From Acidimicrobiia bacterium (GTDB taxonomy: Bacteria; Acidobacteriota; Vicinamibacteria; Vicinamibacterales; CAVVIG01): a stretch of DNA of 64,000 nucleotides. Below are positions 7,276-42,012 of the stretch, piece by piece (within the stretch, counting starts at the first letter, position 1; every line of letters starts with the position of its first letter). Location: NCBI GenBank assembly GCA_016871175.1, contig VFZL01000022.1, positions 4,533 to 68,532 on the forward strand. Reading direction: 5' to 3'. The notes under the pieces were generated by a model, which made no database searches, was not told the DNA's origin, and saw nothing but the letters and a program-made list of their open reading frames with translations. The translations under genes were made by a program, and so were the position numbers.

Positions 7276-8070
7276 ATGAGACGGCTCTCTCTCCCGCGAT
7301 TCGTGTGGCCGCTGGCGCTGGCCGCGGCGGTGCTGATTCCACTCGCCTGGGCCCCGGTGGGCGGCCAGGAACAACACCCGGGCGAGTATTCCCCGTTGGA
7401 TGTCGAGAACGGCTCGCGTCTCTACACCGCTCAGTGCATCACTTGCCATGGGCCGATGGGAAACGGCGTGGTCGGCGTCGACCTGCGACGCGGTTCGTTC
7501 AAGCGGGTGACCACCGATGACGAGCTCCGAAAGGTCATTGTCGGTGGGGTGCCCGGCACGGCGATGCAGAAGTTCGATCTCAGCGCGCCCGAGCAGAACC
7601 AGCTGGTCGCGTACATTCGGTCTGGGCTCGAGGTCGGCGGACGCGCGGCGAAGGTTGGCGATCCGACCCGAGGGAAGCAGGTGTTCGACACGAAGGGCGG
7701 GTGCGCCACCTGCCACCGCACGGGGGGGAGTGGGGCGCGCAAGGGGCCGGACCTGAGCGACATTGGCTCGCTGCGCAGCGCGTCGATGCTGCAGCAGGCG
7801 CTGGTCGAGCCGACCGGCTCCATGCTGCCGATCAACCGCCCGATCCGCGCCGTGACGAAGGCCGGCAAGACGATCACGGGACGCCGGCTCAACGAAGACA
7901 CGTACACGGTACAGCTTGTGGACGAGAACGGCCGGCTGCAGTCCCTGACCAAGGCCGATCTCAAGGAGTACCAGGTGCTGACGGCGTCACCGATGCCGTC
8001 GTTTCGCGACAAGCTGACCGTCGAGGAGATCTCCGACGTCGTCGCGTATCTGCTGACCCTCAAAGGCTGA
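7276..8070 (+). CDS. Diheme c-type cytochrome with putative heme-binding domain
   Basis: Signal peptide, CITCH and CATCH, PGTAM, GPDLS and SPMP motifs. Confidence 0.88.
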   Translation: MRRLSLPRFVWPLALAAAVLIPLAWAPVGGQEQHPGEYSPLDVENGSRLYTAQCITCHGPMGNGVVGVDLRRGSFKRVTTDDELRKVIVGGVPGTAMQKFDLSAPEQNQLVAYIRSGLEVGGRAAKVGDPTRGKQVFDTKGGCATCHRTGGSGARKGPDLSDIGSLRSASMLQQALVEPTGSMLPINRPIRAVTKAGKTITGRRLNEDTYTVQLVDENGRLQSLTKADLKEYQVLTASPMPSFRDKLTVEEISDVVAYLLTLKG

Positions 8071-36436: not shown

Positions 36437-36685
36437 ATGGCCACCTGCCCAGAGTGTGACGCTCCCATCGAAGTCGACGAAGTGGACGCCGACGTCGGCG
36501 ACGAAATCAGCTGCACCGAGTGCGGCCAGAACCTCGTGGTCGTCAATACCGACCCCCTCGAGCTCGACTTCGCCACCGACGAGGATGACGAAGACGAGGA
36601 CGATGATGACGATCTCGACGATGAAGACGACGAGCTGGACGACGACGCCGACGATGACGTGGAGGACGGGGACTGGGACGAATGA
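36437..36685 (+). CDS. LysW/ArgW-like zinc-ribbon protein with long acidic tail
   Basis: GGAG RBS; CPEC...CTECG...DPLEL; Asp/Glu tract; ends EDGDWDE. Confidence 0.8.
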   Translation: MATCPECDAPIEVDEVDADVGDEISCTECGQNLVVVNTDPLELDFATDEDDEDEDDDDDLDDEDDELDDDADDDVEDGDWDE

Positions 36686-37497: not shown

Positions 37498-39978
37498 GTG
37501 ACGACCAATAGGTCCGCCGTGCTGCTCGCGGTGATGGTGCTCGCGCTCCATCTGCCGTACACGCCCGCGTCTCTCGAAGACCTCGATTCACTCAACTTCG
37601 CGCTCGGCGTGCGCCACTTCGACGTGGCGCAGCACCAACCCCACCCGCCCGGGTATCCCGTCTACGTCGCCGTGGCGAAGGCCGTGCAGGCCGTCGTGCC
37701 GGACGTCACAGACGCTCTGTCCCTCGTGAGCGTGGCTGGCGCTGCTCTGGCCGTTTTCGCCATCCTGGCCCTGTTCCGGGTGTGGCCGTCCGCGCAGCGT
37801 GACATCTGGGTGTCCGTCGTCGGGACGACGCTCGCCATCACCTCGCCCCTCTTCTGGATGACGGCGGTTCGCCCGCTCAGCGACATGCTGGGACTGGCGA
37901 TCGCGGTCGCAAGCCAGGCGCTGACGCTCCGAGCGGTGAGGCCGAACACATTCGTCCTCGCGGCGTTCGTCGCCGGTGTGGCCGCTGGTGTCCGGTCGCA
38001 AGTCGTGTGGCTGACGGTACCGCTCCTGGCGATGGCGATCTGGATGCGAGGCGGCGAGGGAGCCGGCCGCCCTCGTACCGCGGCCACGGCTCTTGTTGCG
38101 TACGTCACGGGCGTATTCTTGTGGGCCGTGCCGCTCGTGGTGCTGTCTGGCGGTCCGAGCGCCTACGTGCGCGCACTGGCGGACCAGGGTGGTGAGGATT
38201 TCGCGGGTGTCGCGATGCTGGCGACACAGCCGTCCCCTCGTCTGCTGCTGTCGGCGCTCTACGCAACCTGGATCGCGCCGTGGAACTACTGGCCGCTCGC
38301 GCTCGTCGTGCTGAGCGCGGCCGTCGCCGGGTGCCTGCGCTACTGGCGCCTCGCACCGGTGACGCTTGGCTGGTTGGCGGTGGCGTACGGTCCGTACACC
38401 GCGTTTCATCTCCTGCTTCAGGAGACGGCCACTACGCGCTACGCGCTGCCGCTCGTGGTGCCCATCGCGTATCTCGCGGCATGCGGTCTGGCGGTCTTGC
38501 CACGACCAGGTGCCGCAATCGCCGCCGGTGCGATCGCGGCCATTGGCGTGGTGATGACCCAGCCTGCGCTGCGTGCCTACGCGCTGAACCCCGCGCCAGC
38601 CTTCCAGGCGGTCGAGCTCATGGCCAGTGCCGCGGCGGAGTCGGACCGACCGGTGCTGGCGATGCACCGCCGGCAGGAGCTCGAGATGCGCCGCCCGCTT
38701 CTGTGGAATCGCGACCGCTTACCACAGTGGGCCGCCCGCCTGCCCTCTCCCCCCAAGCTCGAGTGGTTGGAGCTCGTGAAGTACTGGAACGGTGGAGGGC
38801 GTGCCCCGATCTGGTTCCTCGCGGATCCTCCTCGCAGTGACCTGCGGCTCGTCGACAGTCATGCACTGGAAAAGGTGCGTGAGTACCGCTGGCCGTTCGA
38901 CGCGACCAATCTCCTCGGCGGCGTGCGACCGAACGTCATGGACCTCTACCGAGTGTCGCCCCCCGCGTGGTACGCGGGCGAGGGCTGGGCCCTGACCCCT
39001 GAAACCGCCGGCGTGGCCGGCGAGAGGGCGCGCGGGCCCGGCCTCGCGCCCATTCAAGCGTGGGTCCGGCGCCAATCCACTCCGGCCATTTTGATGTTCG
39101 GCGGCCGAAAGCTCTCAGGTGCCGAGCCGACTGACGTCACCGTGGCGATCGAAGGCCGCACGATCTGGACCGGTCCAGTCGCGCCGGGGTTCTTCCTCCA
39201 CTTCGTCCGTCTGGAGCCGGCGGCACTCGCCGGATCCGGAGACTACGCCGAGCTGACCGTGAAGAGCGGAACCAACGAGGTGGCGATCGAACAGTTCGAC
39301 GTACAGACCACCGAGCGCCCGGTGTACGGATTCGGCGAAGGCTGGCATGAGCTCGAGTACAACCCTCGGACGGGTCGGATGTGGCGCTGGACGAGCGAAC
39401 AGGCGGTGCTCCGCGTGATGGCGCCCCGCCGCGCGCTCGCCCTGCGCCTCATCGGGGCGTTCGAAACGTCGGCTGCGACCGCTCACCTGGTCGTGCGTGC
39501 AGGAAGACGGGTGCTCTCGGAGCAGGACGTGCCCAGGGAGTTCACGCTGGACGTGGCGATTCCGTCGGATGTCGTGGCCACCGACGCCGAAACCTTGATC
39601 ACGCTGGAAACGGACCAGTGGTCCGTGCCCGCCGAAACCAACTGGTGGCCCACCCAGGATCGTCGTCACCTGGGACTCCGCGTGTTCGAGCTGACGCTGA
39701 CCGATTCACGCGCGGTGACGCGCATGGGCGGCGGGGTGGGCACGCTCGCACGCACAACCCGAGCGACCGAGGATGGACAGAGGCACTGGTCGGCCGTCGG
39801 GAGCCGACAGCTCTTCGCGTCGGCGGTCGACGTACGACGCTCAGCTCAACCTGACTGCGGAGCGTGGATACCCCGCAGTCAGACCGGTCAGCGCCTCACG
39901 CTAGCATTTGCAGGACCCGCCGGACTTGCTGGACTTGCTCGACTTGCCGGACTTGCTCGATTTGCCAGAACCCCTTGA
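37498..39978 (+). CDS. Multi-TM GT-C/PMT-like glycosyltransferase; last ~90 codons look like read-through
   Basis: DS.NF.LG...QPHPPGYP motif, many TMs, periplasmic beta-domain ending DRRHLGLRV. Confidence 0.7.
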   Translation: MTTNRSAVLLAVMVLALHLPYTPASLEDLDSLNFALGVRHFDVAQHQPHPPGYPVYVAVAKAVQAVVPDVTDALSLVSVAGAALAVFAILALFRVWPSAQRDIWVSVVGTTLAITSPLFWMTAVRPLSDMLGLAIAVASQALTLRAVRPNTFVLAAFVAGVAAGVRSQVVWLTVPLLAMAIWMRGGEGAGRPRTAATALVAYVTGVFLWAVPLVVLSGGPSAYVRALADQGGEDFAGVAMLATQPSPRLLLSALYATWIAPWNYWPLALVVLSAAVAGCLRYWRLAPVTLGWLAVAYGPYTAFHLLLQETATTRYALPLVVPIAYLAACGLAVLPRPGAAIAAGAIAAIGVVMTQPALRAYALNPAPAFQAVELMASAAAESDRPVLAMHRRQELEMRRPLLWNRDRLPQWAARLPSPPKLEWLELVKYWNGGGRAPIWFLADPPRSDLRLVDSHALEKVREYRWPFDATNLLGGVRPNVMDLYRVSPPAWYAGEGWALTPETAGVAGERARGPGLAPIQAWVRRQSTPAILMFGGRKLSGAEPTDVTVAIEGRTIWTGPVAPGFFLHFVRLEPAALAGSGDYAELTVKSGTNEVAIEQFDVQTTERPVYGFGEGWHELEYNPRTGRMWRWTSEQAVLRVMAPRRALALRLIGAFETSAATAHLVVRAGRRVLSEQDVPREFTLDVAIPSDVVATDAETLITLETDQWSVPAETNWWPTQDRRHLGLRVFELTLTDSRAVTRMGGGVGTLARTTRATEDGQRHWSAVGSRQLFASAVDVRRSAQPDCGAWIPRSQTGQRLTLAFAGPAGLAGLARLAGLARFARTP

Positions 39979-40140
39979 GTCGCTGCCGCAGCCCTTGGAA
40001 GACCCGCCCCCTGCCACGACGTCAAGATCAGTGCCGGTCAGCTCGATCAACCCAGCAGGATTTTCGAGGGCGGGTTGCTCGGTCGCGCTCAGAGTGGACC
40101 GAAAGATCGGGGCTTTCCATGCACGGACGATGCTCTTCAT
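39901..40140 (-). CDS. RiPP precursor with mersacidin/lichenicidin-family leader
   Basis: MKSIVRAWKAPIFRSTLS..ENPAGLIELT..DLDVVAGG leader; 34-aa Ser/Lys/Gly/Cys core; GAGG-containing RBS upstream. Confidence 0.85.
   Translation of the reverse strand: MKSIVRAWKAPIFRSTLSATEQPALENPAGLIELTGTDLDVVAGGGSSKGCGSDSRGSGKSSKSGKSSKSSKSGGSCKC
39923..39967. repeat. Five tandem 9-bp repeats encoding the (G/S)KS core units
   Basis: gacttgctg gacttgctc gacttgccg gacttgctc gatttgcca. Confidence 0.9.
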
Positions 40141-40543
40141 GACGACCTGCCTCTTCCTCGCCGTCGGGCGAGGGTCGGGGCTCGACTTCATGCCGAGCGC
40201 CGCTTGCCCGACAGCAAGGCGGGTTCCTGGTCCAACCGTTCCTGGACGTGCGTTTCGCGCGTGAAACTTCAGCGGGCAGTGGACACAGGACGTTGTGGGG
40301 CTTGGACAGCACCTCGGGTACTCCGCGACCGTCTGAGGTCCAGGTGGACGGCGTCCTCTCAGAACAGTGTGTCAGCTCGCACGCCGAGTCCCCAAGCTTC
40401 GAGAACCTCGAATAAGACCACAAGAAGAAGAATTAAGTCACCAAGCAACAAGAACTATCTGATACGCTAACTCAGCGAGTGACGCGTTGATGGGTTTCCA
40501 TAAGGCACTGACTTGCTGCGACTTATTGGATCTATTTCGCCGG

Positions 40544-41302
40544 TCAGCGGTTCGGCTTGCGCGCGAGGCACAGCAACGAGCCCCCCGCCGGGCTGTTGAA
40601 CCACCGGAGCCACCAGCTTTCGAGGTAAAGGATGCCGCTCAGGAGGAGGTTCACGGGTGCGGCCGGTACGCTGATGTCCGTCTCGGCCTGAGCCTCCTCC
40701 GGCAGCCCTCGCCAGCGCTGGTAGGTTCTGATCACCAACATGGGCACGAACAGCGAGGCGTTCGTATAGGTGATGCGTTCGATCGTGAAGCCCGCCTGCG
40801 TCAGCAGGCGCGTCAGCGACGCTCGGCTGTACCGCCGAATCTCGCGCGCGAGCACGGAGTGATCACCCTTTAAACAGTCCATGGCGGCGACATTGATCAG
40901 GATGCACCCGCCGGGTTTGATGACACGGAACATCTCTCGGACCGCCGCCTTCTCAACGGGGTCGGGCAGGCCGTAGAGGACGTCGAACGACGTCACTACG
41001 TCGAAGGCGTTGCTGTAGAGCGGAGCATCGGAGACGCTGGCTTGAACTAGCCGACGCCGGCCGGCCTGGCGTCCGATCTGGAGGCCGACGAACGTGACGT
41101 CAAAGCCATAGGAGCGGCCGAAACGGTCGAGCAGGTCCAGATTAACGCCCGTTCCGCACCCAAAGTCTACGAGACGAACGTCCGATAAGCCCTGCGTCGC
41201 CCGCTGCAACCACGGGGAGACGAACCGGCGCAAGCCTTGGAACCAGAAATGACGCTGCTCCGCCCGCGCCGTGGCGGGCAAGAGTTGGTCCATTTCATGC
41301 AT
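40544..41302 (-). CDS. Class I SAM-dependent methyltransferase
   Basis: EQRHFWF, DFGCGTG, FDVVTSFDVL, RVIKPGG. Confidence 0.88.
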   Translation of the reverse strand: MHEMDQLLPATARAEQRHFWFQGLRRFVSPWLQRATQGLSDVRLVDFGCGTGVNLDLLDRFGRSYGFDVTFVGLQIGRQAGRRRLVQASVSDAPLYSNAFDVVTSFDVLYGLPDPVEKAAVREMFRVIKPGGCILINVAAMDCLKGDHSVLAREIRRYSRASLTRLLTQAGFTIERITYTNASLFVPMLVIRTYQRWRGLPEEAQAETDISVPAAPVNLLLSGILYLESWWLRWFNSPAGGSLLCLARKPNR

Positions 41303-41424: not shown

Positions 41425-42012
41425 ATGATTCGCCTACGCCGGTATCTTCCAGTCCTCGCGTTGCTTGTGACGCTCGGCATCATCGCGGCGGCCTGCGGCA
41501 AGAAGCCGGTTCCGCCACAAGCGCCCCCGCCGCCTCCACCACCGCCGCCTGTGGTGCAGGTGCCGCCACCGCCGCCGCCCCCCCCACCACCGCCGCCCCC
41601 GCCACCCCCGCCACCGGCGCCGCTGACCGAAGATCAGATCTTCGCACGGAAGTCACTGGCGGAGCTGAACGCGGAGCGTCCGCTTGGCGACGTGTTCTTC
41701 GACTACGACCAGTCGACCATTCGCGACGATGCGCGCGGTCCGCTGGAGCGAAACGCCGATTGGATGAAACGCTGGACCAGCACGCAGGTCACTATTGAAG
41801 GACACGGCGACTCGCGCGGTACTCCGGAGTATAACCTAGCGCTCGGCACGCGTCGTGCCGACGCCGTGAAGACGTATCTCGTGAATCTCGGCGTGCCCGC
41901 CAGCCGCCTCACAGTTGTGAGCAAGGGCGAGGAGGAGCCGCAGTGCCGGGATGAGAGCGAGTCCTGCTGGCAGCAAAATCGTCGCGGGCACTTCATCATC
42001 ACAGCGAAGTAG
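41425..42012 (+). CDS. pal: Peptidoglycan-associated lipoprotein (OmpA-like) with poly-Pro linker
   Basis: Lipobox AAAC, FFDYD, EGHGDSRGT.EYNLALG.RRA, SKGEE, NRR. Confidence 0.9.
   Translation: MIRLRRYLPVLALLVTLGIIAAACGKKPVPPQAPPPPPPPPPVVQVPPPPPPPPPPPPPPPPPPAPLTEDQIFARKSLAELNAERPLGDVFFDYDQSTIRDDARGPLERNADWMKRWTSTQVTIEGHGDSRGTPEYNLALGTRRADAVKTYLVNLGVPASRLTVVSKGEEEPQCRDESESCWQQNRRGHFIITAK

What the first reader, a model, noticed from the sequence alone, without database searches (positions are those of the whole stretch)
39901..40140. Orphan RiPP precursor with a lanthipeptide-type leader and a repeat-built Ser/Lys core
Seen: a 79-aa ORF with a 45-aa leader (IVRAWK..FR..L...ENPAG.IEL...L..VAGG) and the core GSSKGCGSDSRGSGKSSKSGKSSKSSKSGGSCKC. 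The core has 14 Ser, 7 Lys and 3 Cys, no hydrophobic residues, and comes partly from five 9-bp tandem repeats. Known: this leader matches the mersacidin/lichenicidin class II (LanM) family and is cleaved at GG by C39 peptidase transporters. No LanM, YcaO, rSAM maturase or LanT lies in this 64 kb. Inference: it is a trans-processed precursor of an undescribed cationic RiPP. Ser far exceeds Cys, so poly-dehydroalanine, lysinoalanine, D-Ala or O-glycosylation chemistry is possible, and repeat slippage could vary the core.
Basis: partly seen in the sequence, partly recalled or inferred. Interest (0 to 1): 0.85.

Follow-up and report, generated by a model that had tools for sequence, protein, structure and literature searches.

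The report
Stranded lantibiotic-type precursor gene, Ser/Lys core
A real but stranded peptide-precursor gene sits alone on a small DNA insertion in a genome where none of the enzymes that process such peptides were found; its relatives elsewhere point to a possibly new kind of phosphorylated secreted peptide.

Summary
Window 39901-40140 (-) encodes a 79-aa peptide. Its 45-aa leader scores 43.5 bits on TIGR03898 (mersacidin/lichenicidin type 2 lantibiotic; cut-off 23.5). Its 34-aa core has 14 Ser, 8 Gly, 7 Lys and 3 Cys and is partly built from 9-bp repeats.

It belongs to a family with low-complexity Ser/Gly/Lys ("SK-type") cores, found mainly in metagenomes. In relatives the precursor is followed directly by LanM, HlyD and a C39-peptidase ABC exporter: LanM follows in 15 of 16 SK-type loci with enough downstream DNA.

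Here the gene lies alone, with its 3' hairpin, on a ~0.86-kb insertion between two convergent genes that abut in a same-genus genome. The 96.8%-complete assembly shows no LanM, LanC, LanB, YcaO or C39 domain and no second precursor. I read it as a stranded lanA, probably unprocessed. "Processed in trans" is not supported but cannot be excluded, because about 3% of the genome is missing.

Side result: all 10 distinct LanMs next to Ser-rich cores keep the kinase residues but lack the Arg and Thr needed for phosphate elimination. All 11 LanMs next to ordinary cores keep both. The family may therefore yield poly-phosphoserine peptides rather than dehydroalanine or lanthionine peptides.

The parts
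39901..40140 (-). lanA-type precursor ORF, 79 aa plus stop codon (39901-39903)
   Evidence: TIGR03898 43.5 bits; 11 homologues
40006..40140 (-). Leader peptide, aa 1-45, ending in VAGG (double-glycine type end)
   Evidence: TIGR03898 match covers aa 4-45; invariant columns W8, P11, R14, L17, P28, G30, I32, E33, L34, G36, L39, V42-G45
39904..40005 (-). Core peptide, 34 aa: S14 G8 K7 C3 D1 R1, ending in SCKC
   Evidence: core type shared with homologues
39922..39965 (.). 9-bp tandem repeats (4.9 copies) that encode the KSS/KSG units of the core
40150..40159 (-). Purine-rich Shine-Dalgarno-like stretch (GAGGAAGAGG); its GAGG ends 9 nt before the ATG
   Evidence: read; function inferred
39851..39882 (.). 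GC-rich hairpin (10-nt perfect arms, 12-nt loop) beginning 19 nt after the precursor stop codon
   Evidence: I7; MFE -42.1 kcal/mol, z -3.0. By my reading of the folds, 14 of the 16 Ser-rich loci folded have a comparable hairpin after lanA
39691..40552 (.). ~862-bp insertion relative to same-genus and same-family genomes; single copy in this genome; holds only the precursor gene, its hairpin and about 400 nt of upstream non-coding DNA
   Evidence: homology to G002 and G001 ends at 39690 and resumes at 40553. In G002 the two flanking genes overlap. Single copy. GC drops to 0.49-0.57 at 40300-40600
39691..39978 (+). Read-through tail of the neighbouring TMEM260-like GT-C ORF (37498-39978). It is not conserved in orthologues and overlaps the 3' end of the precursor by 78 nt on the opposite strand
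   Evidence: orthologues match only up to query residues 731-753 of 826. The G002 orthologue stops 8 codons after the conserved block

Best explanation
It is a genuine class II (LanM-type) lanthipeptide-precursor gene of a subfamily with low-complexity Ser/Gly/Lys cores. It is stranded in a genome where its processing and export machinery was not found.

How the complete system works in relatives (gene order shown, chemistry inferred):
- The conserved leader (IRAWKDPxFR ... NPAGMIELTGTxLDxVAGG) docks the peptide onto a LanM encoded directly downstream.
- LanM phosphorylates core serines with ATP.
- A C39-peptidase ABC transporter, working with a HlyD-type adaptor, then cuts after the GG motif and exports the core.

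In this genome only the precursor gene, its 3' hairpin and about 400 nt of upstream DNA are present. They lie on an ~0.86-kb insertion between two convergent housekeeping-type genes. The insertion arose either by illegitimate insertion of a cluster fragment or by deletion of lanM-hlyD-lanT after a whole cluster had inserted; this step is inferred.

Without LanM and the C39 exporter, any translated peptide would stay unmodified, keep its leader and remain in the cytoplasm. I therefore regard the gene as an intact but probably functionless remnant of horizontal transfer.
For: Identity of the gene:
- Leader HMM hit above the cut-off, and homologues share both leader and core.

Gene order in relatives:
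- LanM follows the precursor in 15 of 16 SK-type loci that have at least 600 nt of downstream DNA (14 of 15 distinct, because L017 and L018 are identical).
- The full LanM-HlyD-LanT order is seen in L005, L006, L015, L017/18, L022, L023 and L027.
- No other gene is conserved in these clusters.

Insertion:
- The order CNNM, RR-PilZ, LysW, LarE, GT-C, MT, Pal is kept in G002 and G008, where GT-C and MT abut. In G002 they overlap by 17 nt.
- The window has 862 extra bases at that point.
- Only the ORF in the insert resembles the relatives' loci, and there is no LanM remnant.
- The hairpin after lanA is the usual feature of these clusters.

Missing machinery in the own genome (4.44 Mb, 85 contigs, 96.8% complete):
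- No match to PF05147. The same search does find it in the genomes of L006 and L005.
- No match to a LanM protein query.
- PF13575 gives only 10 bits.
- A profile built from 11 LanMs found nothing among 62,137 six-frame ORFs at E<=10.
- No PF03412 match (the tool's control genomes matched in 7 of 14), and my own C39 profile reached only E 0.17.
- No PF04738 or PF02624 match.
- No second precursor.

Distribution:
- The precursor was not found in 40 related genomes, including 2 of the same genus.
- It was not found in 400 sampled genomes of the phylum; two of those have only leader-level matches of 37 bits.
Against: - The ORF is intact, keeps every invariant leader residue and has a good ribosome-binding site. 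That fits a working gene as well as a young remnant.
- About 3% of the genome is unassembled. Horizontally acquired islands and plasmids are the parts most often lost in binning, so a LanM cluster elsewhere cannot be excluded.
- L021 lies on a contig syntenic with G000 contig C6. There an SK-type precursor is followed directly by HlyD and LanT with no LanM within 2.9 kb upstream. In this lineage LanM may therefore be dispensable or encoded at a distance.
Confidence: 0.6

Rival explanations
1. One reading: a functional precursor processed in trans by a LanM and exporter encoded elsewhere in the same organism, in the unassembled ~3% or on an unbinned plasmid or island. This would resemble the scattered ProcA genes served by one ProcM.
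For: - The ORF is intact, with conserved leader residues and a ribosome-binding site.
- The sequence is identical in samples of two studies dated 2018 and 2025, apart from one upstream SNP.
- One LanM serving many dispersed precursors is established for ProcM (29 ProcA substrates; PMC3475617, whole text read).
Against: - No LanM, LanC or C39 signal appears anywhere in 4.44 Mb, and the positive control worked.
- There is no second precursor. Genomes with trans-acting LanMs normally carry a cluster-linked copy as well.
- In 15 of 16 SK-type loci the precursor is directly linked to LanM.
Confidence: 0.2
2. The peptide has a LanM-independent role. It could act unmodified inside the cell, or be modified by a general enzyme of the host, such as one of its many Hanks-type Ser/Thr kinases.
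For: - L021 and L026 show an SK-type precursor with the exporter but without an adjacent LanM, in a relative of this lineage.
- The genome encodes at least 8 Pkinase-like loci.
Against: - The kinase next to the L021 precursor is a conserved chromosomal gene. It is 74% identical to G000 C6:132551-133519 and lies in the same RsmE/kinase synteny there. Its adjacency is therefore probably incidental.
- No C39 exporter was found here, so the leader could not be removed in the usual way.
- No data show any function.
Confidence: 0.12
3. The ORF is a chance open frame in GC-rich DNA, and the real coding sequence is the opposite-strand tail of the GT-C gene.
For: The 826-aa GT-C ORF overlaps the precursor by 78 nt, and long spurious ORFs are common at about 66% GC.
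Against: - HMM E-value 2e-11 and homologues at E 4e-25.
- The GT-C tail beyond about residue 735 is absent from all three orthologues, which stop there.
Confidence: 0.03

Closest known systems
Mersacidin/lichenicidin-type class II lanthipeptide precursors (NCBIfam TIGR03898), with LanM such as LicM2 and a LanT-type C39 ABC exporter
   Same: - Leader profile match above the cut-off, with a GG-type leader end.
- In relatives the downstream enzyme has DUF4135 plus LanC-like domains.
- Its closest solved relatives are LicM2 (6ST5, E 1e-78 and 9e-27) and CylM (5DZT).
- A C39 ABC exporter is present in relatives.
   Different: - The core is low-complexity Ser/Gly/Lys with no hydrophobic residues.
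- 12 of 23 complete SK-type cores have no Cys, so they cannot form lanthionine.
- The relatives' LanMs lack the elimination Arg and Thr, and half have lost the zinc ligands.
- Here no LanM or LanT was found at all.
Dispersed ProcA precursors served by one ProcM (prochlorosins)
   Same: A precursor gene located away from any synthetase gene.
   Different: Those genomes do encode ProcM (PMC3475617, whole text read). Here no LanM was found in a 96.8%-complete genome, and only one precursor copy exists.
Engineered elimination-deficient LanMs used as leader-dependent kinases (LctM R399M/T405A, ProcM T516A, CylM R506A/T512A)
   Same: The same two positions are naturally substituted in every LanM found next to a Ser-rich core: Arg to Cys, Ser or Ala, and Thr to Ser, Ala or Met. 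The kinase residues are kept. The mutants' behaviour is taken from PMC3475617 (whole text) and PMC4550811 (passages).
   Different: These are natural enzymes and are untested. Thr to Ser keeps the hydroxyl and also occurs in 7 of 150 LanM representatives that retain the Arg, so it may be tolerated.
Ser/Lys/Arg-rich repeat regions of Bacillus spore-coat proteins CotB and CotG, polyphosphorylated by CotH; diatom silaffins
   Same: Ser/Lys-rich repeats that serve as substrates for multiple serine phosphorylation. For CotB, CotG and CotH I saw only the abstract of PMC7821199 in the listing. Silaffins are recalled from memory and come from no call.
   Different: Unrelated proteins and kinases. They are not leader-guided and not exported by a C39 transporter. 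This is a resemblance in how it may work, not family membership.

Membership tests
TIGR03898 mersacidin/lichenicidin family type 2 lantibiotic (precursor) | Profile score above the curated cut-off over the leader | tested here: met
   43.5 bits against 23.5, aa 4-45 on profile positions 2-44 of 44
TIGR03898 mersacidin/lichenicidin family type 2 lantibiotic (precursor) | Leader ends in a double-glycine type site followed by a short core | tested here: met
   VAGG at aa 42-45, invariant in 12 of 12 aligned sequences. Cleavage itself was not tested.
Class II lanthipeptide system | A LanM (DUF4135 dehydratase plus LanC-like cyclase) encoded with the precursor or elsewhere in the genome | tested here: not met
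   None in the window or the genome; the positive control worked. Caveat: the genome is 96.8% complete.
Class II lanthipeptide system | C39-peptidase ABC exporter (LanT) for leader removal and export | tested here: not met
   No PF03412 match (the tool's control genomes matched in 7 of 14). My own C39 profile reached only E 0.17.
Class II lanthipeptide (product) | Core carries Ser/Thr and Cys that can form thioether rings | tested here: met
   14 Ser and 3 Cys. Ring formation cannot be tested here. 12 of 23 related SK-type cores have no Cys.
Class II lanthipeptide (product) | Ser/Thr are dehydrated (phosphorylation followed by elimination) and cyclised | not testable with these tools
   Sequence argues against efficient elimination in the relatives' LanMs: 0 of 11 rows keep Arg506 or Thr512 (CylM numbering), against 11 of 11 for LanMs next to ordinary cores.
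SK-type subfamily (defined here: this leader plus a core with S+G+K+R+H at least 75%) | Leader homology and core composition | tested here: met
   The window core is 88% S+G+K+R+H (30 of 34). 24 of the 49 loci fetched are of this type.
SK-type subfamily (defined here) | Gene order lanA, LanM, HlyD, LanT, with a hairpin after lanA | tested here: not met
   Only lanA and the hairpin are present.

The most novel reading that the evidence does not exclude
The window's gene is a stray member of an undescribed RiPP-like family. In this family a LanM clade has become a leader-dependent serine kinase: kinase residues kept, elimination Arg and Thr lost, cyclase zinc site decaying. The exported products would then be multiply O-phosphorylated Ser/Lys peptides, polyampholytes resembling silaffins or CotB/CotG. 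They would not be lanthipeptides or dehydroalanine peptides. Such peptides, from bacteria known so far mainly from metagenomes, could act in mineral or metal binding, in the extracellular matrix, or in surface conditioning rather than as antibiotics.
Probability: 0.35. Interest if true: 0.75.

Novelty: new variant of a known kind. Interest (0 to 1): 0.45.

Why it matters
For this genome the result is a correction. The gene would be annotated as a 'type 2 lantibiotic', yet none of the machinery such a peptide needs was found, so it should not be counted as biosynthetic potential. It also shows how a precursor-only fragment can land between two genes and extend a neighbouring ORF by about 95 codons.

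The wider point is the family it belongs to. Ser/Gly/Lys repeat cores, half of them without Cys, are paired with LanMs that carry the same two substitutions chemists introduced to turn LanMs into peptide kinases. If confirmed by mass spectrometry, this would be a natural leader-guided peptide polyphosphorylation system and a new end-point for the LanM scaffold. The test is simple: co-express the precursor with LanM and look for +80 Da ladders rather than -18 Da ladders.

Tried and rejected
- Pfam on the precursor gave no family.
- tblastn of the precursor against the plasmid collection found no match.
- Rfam on 39300-40900 gave only a Hammerhead_1 match of 19 bits against a gathering score of 34, E 0.25, which I take as chance.
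- The sigma-70 promoter and intrinsic-terminator scans of 39500-40700 found 0 sites each. The hairpin lacks a T-run.
- 10-nt direct repeats at 39884-39893 and 40540-40549 were considered as target-site duplications. I rejected them: five such exact 10-mers occur in 1.4 kb, and the homology breakpoints lie elsewhere.
- I looked for a LanM remnant or other gene remnants in the insert. There were only sub-35-bit tblastx/tblastn scraps.
- The Ser/Thr kinase next to the L021 precursor was considered as a dedicated peptide kinase. I rejected it as evidence because it is a syntenic chromosomal gene in G000 contig C6.
- The neighbouring TMEM260-like GT-C (22.9 bits, just below the Pfam cut-off of 24.2) and the SAM methyltransferase were considered as tailoring enzymes. 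I rejected them because the same pair abuts in relatives without the precursor.
- The ESM Atlas gave only leader-type clusters at 0.81-0.82, below the level of evidence.
- Expression: no RNA holder was listed among the 15 runs, so nothing can be said either way.
- X7 and X8 gave only low-depth fragments, and parts without cover are not interpreted.
- Literature searches and passages of PMC7268733 and PMC11251773 gave no description of Ser/Lys-repeat LanM substrates or of natural elimination-deficient LanMs.
- The organism's name could not be obtained.
Full report
**1. The observation**

Window 39901-40140 (minus strand) is an open frame of 79 codons beginning MKSIVRAWK. GAGG lies 9 nt upstream of the ATG. 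The first 45 residues end in VAGG. The remaining 34 residues are S14 G8 K7 C3 D1 R1.

Tandem Repeats Finder reports a 9-bp unit, 4.9 copies, at 39922-39965, and the repeat finder shows five copies in register.

NCBIfam TIGR03898 (mersacidin/lichenicidin family type 2 lantibiotic) matches residues 4-45 with 43.5 bits against a cut-off of 23.5, E 2.2e-11. Pfam has nothing.

**2. It is a real gene family**

A search of 5.8 billion proteins returned 11 homologues of 76-93 aa, with E 4e-25 to 2e-11. They share 52-79% identity with the window protein, a near-invariant leader, and Ser/Lys/Gly cores that mostly end in SCKC or SGKC.

Scans of genome and metagenome contigs added 6 and 43 loci. I classed the 49 loci by core composition:
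- 24 are 'SK-type' (S+G+K+R+H at least 75% of the core).
- 2 more are Ser-rich but below that threshold (L012, L027).
- 18 have ordinary Cys/Thr-rich lanthipeptide cores.
- 1 is truncated and 4 could not be parsed.

SK-type cores are 22-55 aa and use different repeat units (GKS, SGKSS, KSH, GGGSGK, RS). Of the 23 complete SK-type cores, 12 contain no Cys.

The named genome records are titled Blastocatellia, Acidobacteriota, Ardenticatenia and 'Heliobacteriaceae' metagenome-assembled genomes.

**3. What surrounds the gene in relatives**

Pfam on L006 shows the precursor followed by three genes:
- a 1084-aa protein with DUF4135 (447 bits) and a LanC-like domain (226 bits);
- a HlyD-family adaptor;
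- a 705-aa ABC transporter with an N-terminal C39 peptidase.

tblastn with these three proteins against all loci gave the following:
- LanM starts within 600 nt after the precursor in 15 of the 16 SK-type loci that have at least 600 nt of downstream DNA. L017 and L018 are identical, so this is 14 of 15 distinct loci.
- The full LanM-HlyD-LanT order occurs in L005, L006, L015, L017/18, L022, L023 and L027.

All-against-all comparison of ORFs from ten loci found no further conserved gene.

I folded 80 nt downstream of lanA in 16 Ser-rich loci. By my reading of the folds, 14 have a clean GC-rich hairpin. The window has one too, at 39851-39882: 10-nt perfect arms, -42.1 kcal/mol, z -3.0 against mononucleotide shuffles.

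**4. What surrounds it here**

The neighbours are a TMEM260-like GT-C membrane protein (37498-39978, +; 22.9 bits, just under the Pfam cut-off) and a SAM methyltransferase (40544-41302, -).

In a same-genus genome (G002) and a same-family genome (G008) the order CNNM, RR-PilZ, LysW, LarE, GT-C, MT, Pal is kept. In G002 the convergent GT-C and MT genes overlap by 17 nt.

Nucleotide homology to G002 and G001 ends at window 39690 and resumes at 40553. The window therefore carries about 862 extra bases at that point.

Features of the insert:
- Only the precursor ORF resembles the relatives' loci, and there is no LanM remnant.
- It is single-copy in the genome.
- Its upstream part is AT-richer (GC 0.49-0.57) than the flanking genes (0.65-0.74).

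The GT-C orthologues align only to residues 731-753 of the 826-aa ORF and stop there. The last ~95 codons of the window's GT-C ORF, including the 78-nt antisense overlap with the precursor, are read-through into the insert.

The insertion is not an assembly artefact. Contigs of about 29.3 kb from two runs of a different, later study cover 39200-41000 with one substitution (40442) and no indel. All runs holding the stretch are labelled lake-water metagenomes, apart from one biofilter run with a small share that I did not lay.

**5. The rest of the genome**

The assembly has 4.44 Mb in 85 contigs and is 96.8% complete with 0.44% contamination. Results of the searches:
- PF05147 (LanC-like): no match. 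That search matched none of the tool's control genomes, so I repeated it on the genomes of L006 and L005, where it matched in 2 of 2.
- L006 LanM protein as query: no match.
- PF13575: best 10 bits, E 0.5.
- A profile built from 11 LanMs: no hit at E<=10 among 62,137 six-frame ORFs.
- PF03412 (C39): none, with the tool's control genomes matching in 7 of 14. My own C39 profile reached only E 0.17. The ABC exporters present lack the peptidase domain.
- PF04738 (LanB) and PF02624 (YcaO): none.
- TIGR03898: only this one locus, and no paralogue by tblastn.
- Fifteen radical-SAM loci exist. The only one in the window is QueE, next to QueC.

The precursor was not found in 40 related genomes, including both same-genus genomes. 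It was not found in a 400-genome sample of the phylum, where two genomes have 37-bit leader-only matches. The same phylum sample came back when I centred the search on the genome of L006. I infer from this that both genomes belong to one phylum.

**6. Interpretation**

The gene is a true lanA-type precursor, but here it is stranded. It arrived on, or was left behind as, a 0.86-kb fragment, and neither the synthetase nor the leader-cleaving exporter was found in the genome. I give this reading 0.6.

It survives only if the machinery lies in the missing ~3% or on unbinned DNA.

A LanM-independent role gets 0.12. It draws some support from L021 and L026, where an SK-type precursor is followed directly by HlyD and LanT with no LanM within 2.9 kb upstream. 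That contig is syntenic with G000 contig C6 (CarboxypepD-reg protein, RsmE, Ser/Thr kinase; 74% identity for the kinase). It therefore comes from a relative of this organism. The kinase beside that precursor is a resident chromosomal gene, not evidence for a dedicated modifier.

**7. What the family probably makes**

I aligned the LanMs and numbered them through CylM (5DZT). The residue roles come from PMC4550811 (passages):
- Zinc ligands: Cys875, Cys911, His912.
- Kinase residues: Lys274, Asp347, His349, Asn352, Asp364.
- Phosphate-elimination residues: Asp252, His254, Arg506, Thr512.

The results:
- All rows that cover the kinase residues keep them.
- At Arg506, the 11 rows (10 distinct enzymes) next to SK-type or Ser-rich cores have Cys (8), Ala (2) or Ser (1).
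- At Thr512, the same rows have Ser (6), Ala (2) or Met (3).
- All 11 LanMs next to ordinary cores have Arg and Thr.
- The local alignment is gap-free.

Zinc ligands are intact in 3 of 6 distinct Ser-rich-type enzymes (L006, L022, L027) and lost in 3 (L015, L017, L023). They are intact in 11 of 11 ordinary LanMs.

Among the 150 best 50%-identity representatives of 1.84 billion proteins, 136 have Arg+Thr and only 5 lack the Arg. Those 5 include the two closest hits. The Arg-less enzymes therefore appear to be a small clade.

Replacing exactly these residues in LctM (R399M, T405A), ProcM (T516A) and CylM (R506A, T512A) gives enzymes that phosphorylate but eliminate poorly or not at all. Such mutants have been used as leader-dependent peptide kinases (PMC3475617, whole text; PMC4550811).

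My inference is that the mature products of complete SK-type clusters are multiply phosphorylated Ser/Lys peptides rather than poly-dehydroalanine, lysinoalanine or D-Ala peptides.

Against this inference:
- Thr to Ser keeps the hydroxyl, and it occurs in 7 of 150 representatives that retain Arg.
- Half the enzymes keep the zinc site.
- Several cores, including the window's, keep C-terminal Cys, which suggests that some ring formation survives.

I put this reading at about 0.35.

**8. Comparison with what is known, and novelty**

By leader, the gene is a member of TIGR03898, and databases already label relatives 'type 2 lantibiotic'. By system, it fails two defining features of a class II lanthipeptide locus in this genome: no LanM and no LanT.

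Six literature searches and passages of two genome-mining papers gave no description of this core type or of natural elimination-deficient LanMs. Supplements were closed and might list the family.

The nearest functional analogies are the engineered LanM kinases and the polyphosphorylated Ser/Lys/Arg repeats of CotB and CotG (PMC7821199, abstract only in the listing). Silaffins are recalled from memory.

I rate the finding as a new variant of a known kind. The locus itself is of modest interest because it is probably inert. The family it points to is the more interesting lead.

Noticed in passing
Related loci L004, L005, L006, L008, L013, L015, L017/L018, L022, L023, L027 (LanM genes directly downstream of the precursors): Every LanM next to a Ser-rich core lacks the phosphate-elimination Arg and Thr (CylM 506 and 512) but keeps the kinase residues. 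Three of six distinct enzymes have also lost the zinc ligands of the cyclase domain. All 11 LanMs next to ordinary cores keep all of these residues.
   Followed up: yes
L021:1811-5020 and L026: Here an SK-type precursor is followed directly by HlyD and a C39 ABC exporter, with no LanM within 2.9 kb upstream. The left part of the contig (CarboxypepD-reg protein, RsmE, Ser/Thr kinase) is syntenic with G000 contig C6:127371-133522, so the contig comes from a relative of the window's organism.
   Followed up: partly
L005:10565-16970: LanM and LanT are each split over several frames (4-5 ORF pieces each). They may be pseudogenes or carry frameshift errors of the assembly.
   Followed up: no
window 37498-39978 (+): The TMEM260-like GT-C ORF has lost its ancestral stop and reads about 95 codons into the inserted DNA, overlapping the precursor on the opposite strand. 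Orthologues stop 8-10 codons after the conserved ...RHLGLR(V/L)(F/Y)E block.
   Followed up: yes
window 40239-40278 (-): Weak Hammerhead_1 match (19 bits against a gathering score of 34, E 0.25) inside the insert, upstream of the precursor. Probably chance.
   Followed up: no
L061 (G001:C106) about 7790-7981: In the same-genus genome G001, the DNA after the GT-C stop is a run of GGTAGGCCGGGT-like tandem repeats up to the contig end. The same intergenic spot therefore also varies there.
   Followed up: no
window 36437-36685 (+) and 41425-42012 (+): A LysW-like zinc-ribbon protein has a long poly-Asp/Glu tail and lies directly upstream of LarE. The Pal/OmpA lipoprotein has a run of about 30 prolines.
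   Followed up: no
L004, L006, L008 record titles compared: Three records that carry SK-type clusters are titled 'uncultured Heliobacteriaceae'. Yet the phylum sample centred on the genome of L006 returned the same genomes as the sample centred on the window's genome. The title and the grouping disagree.
   Followed up: partly
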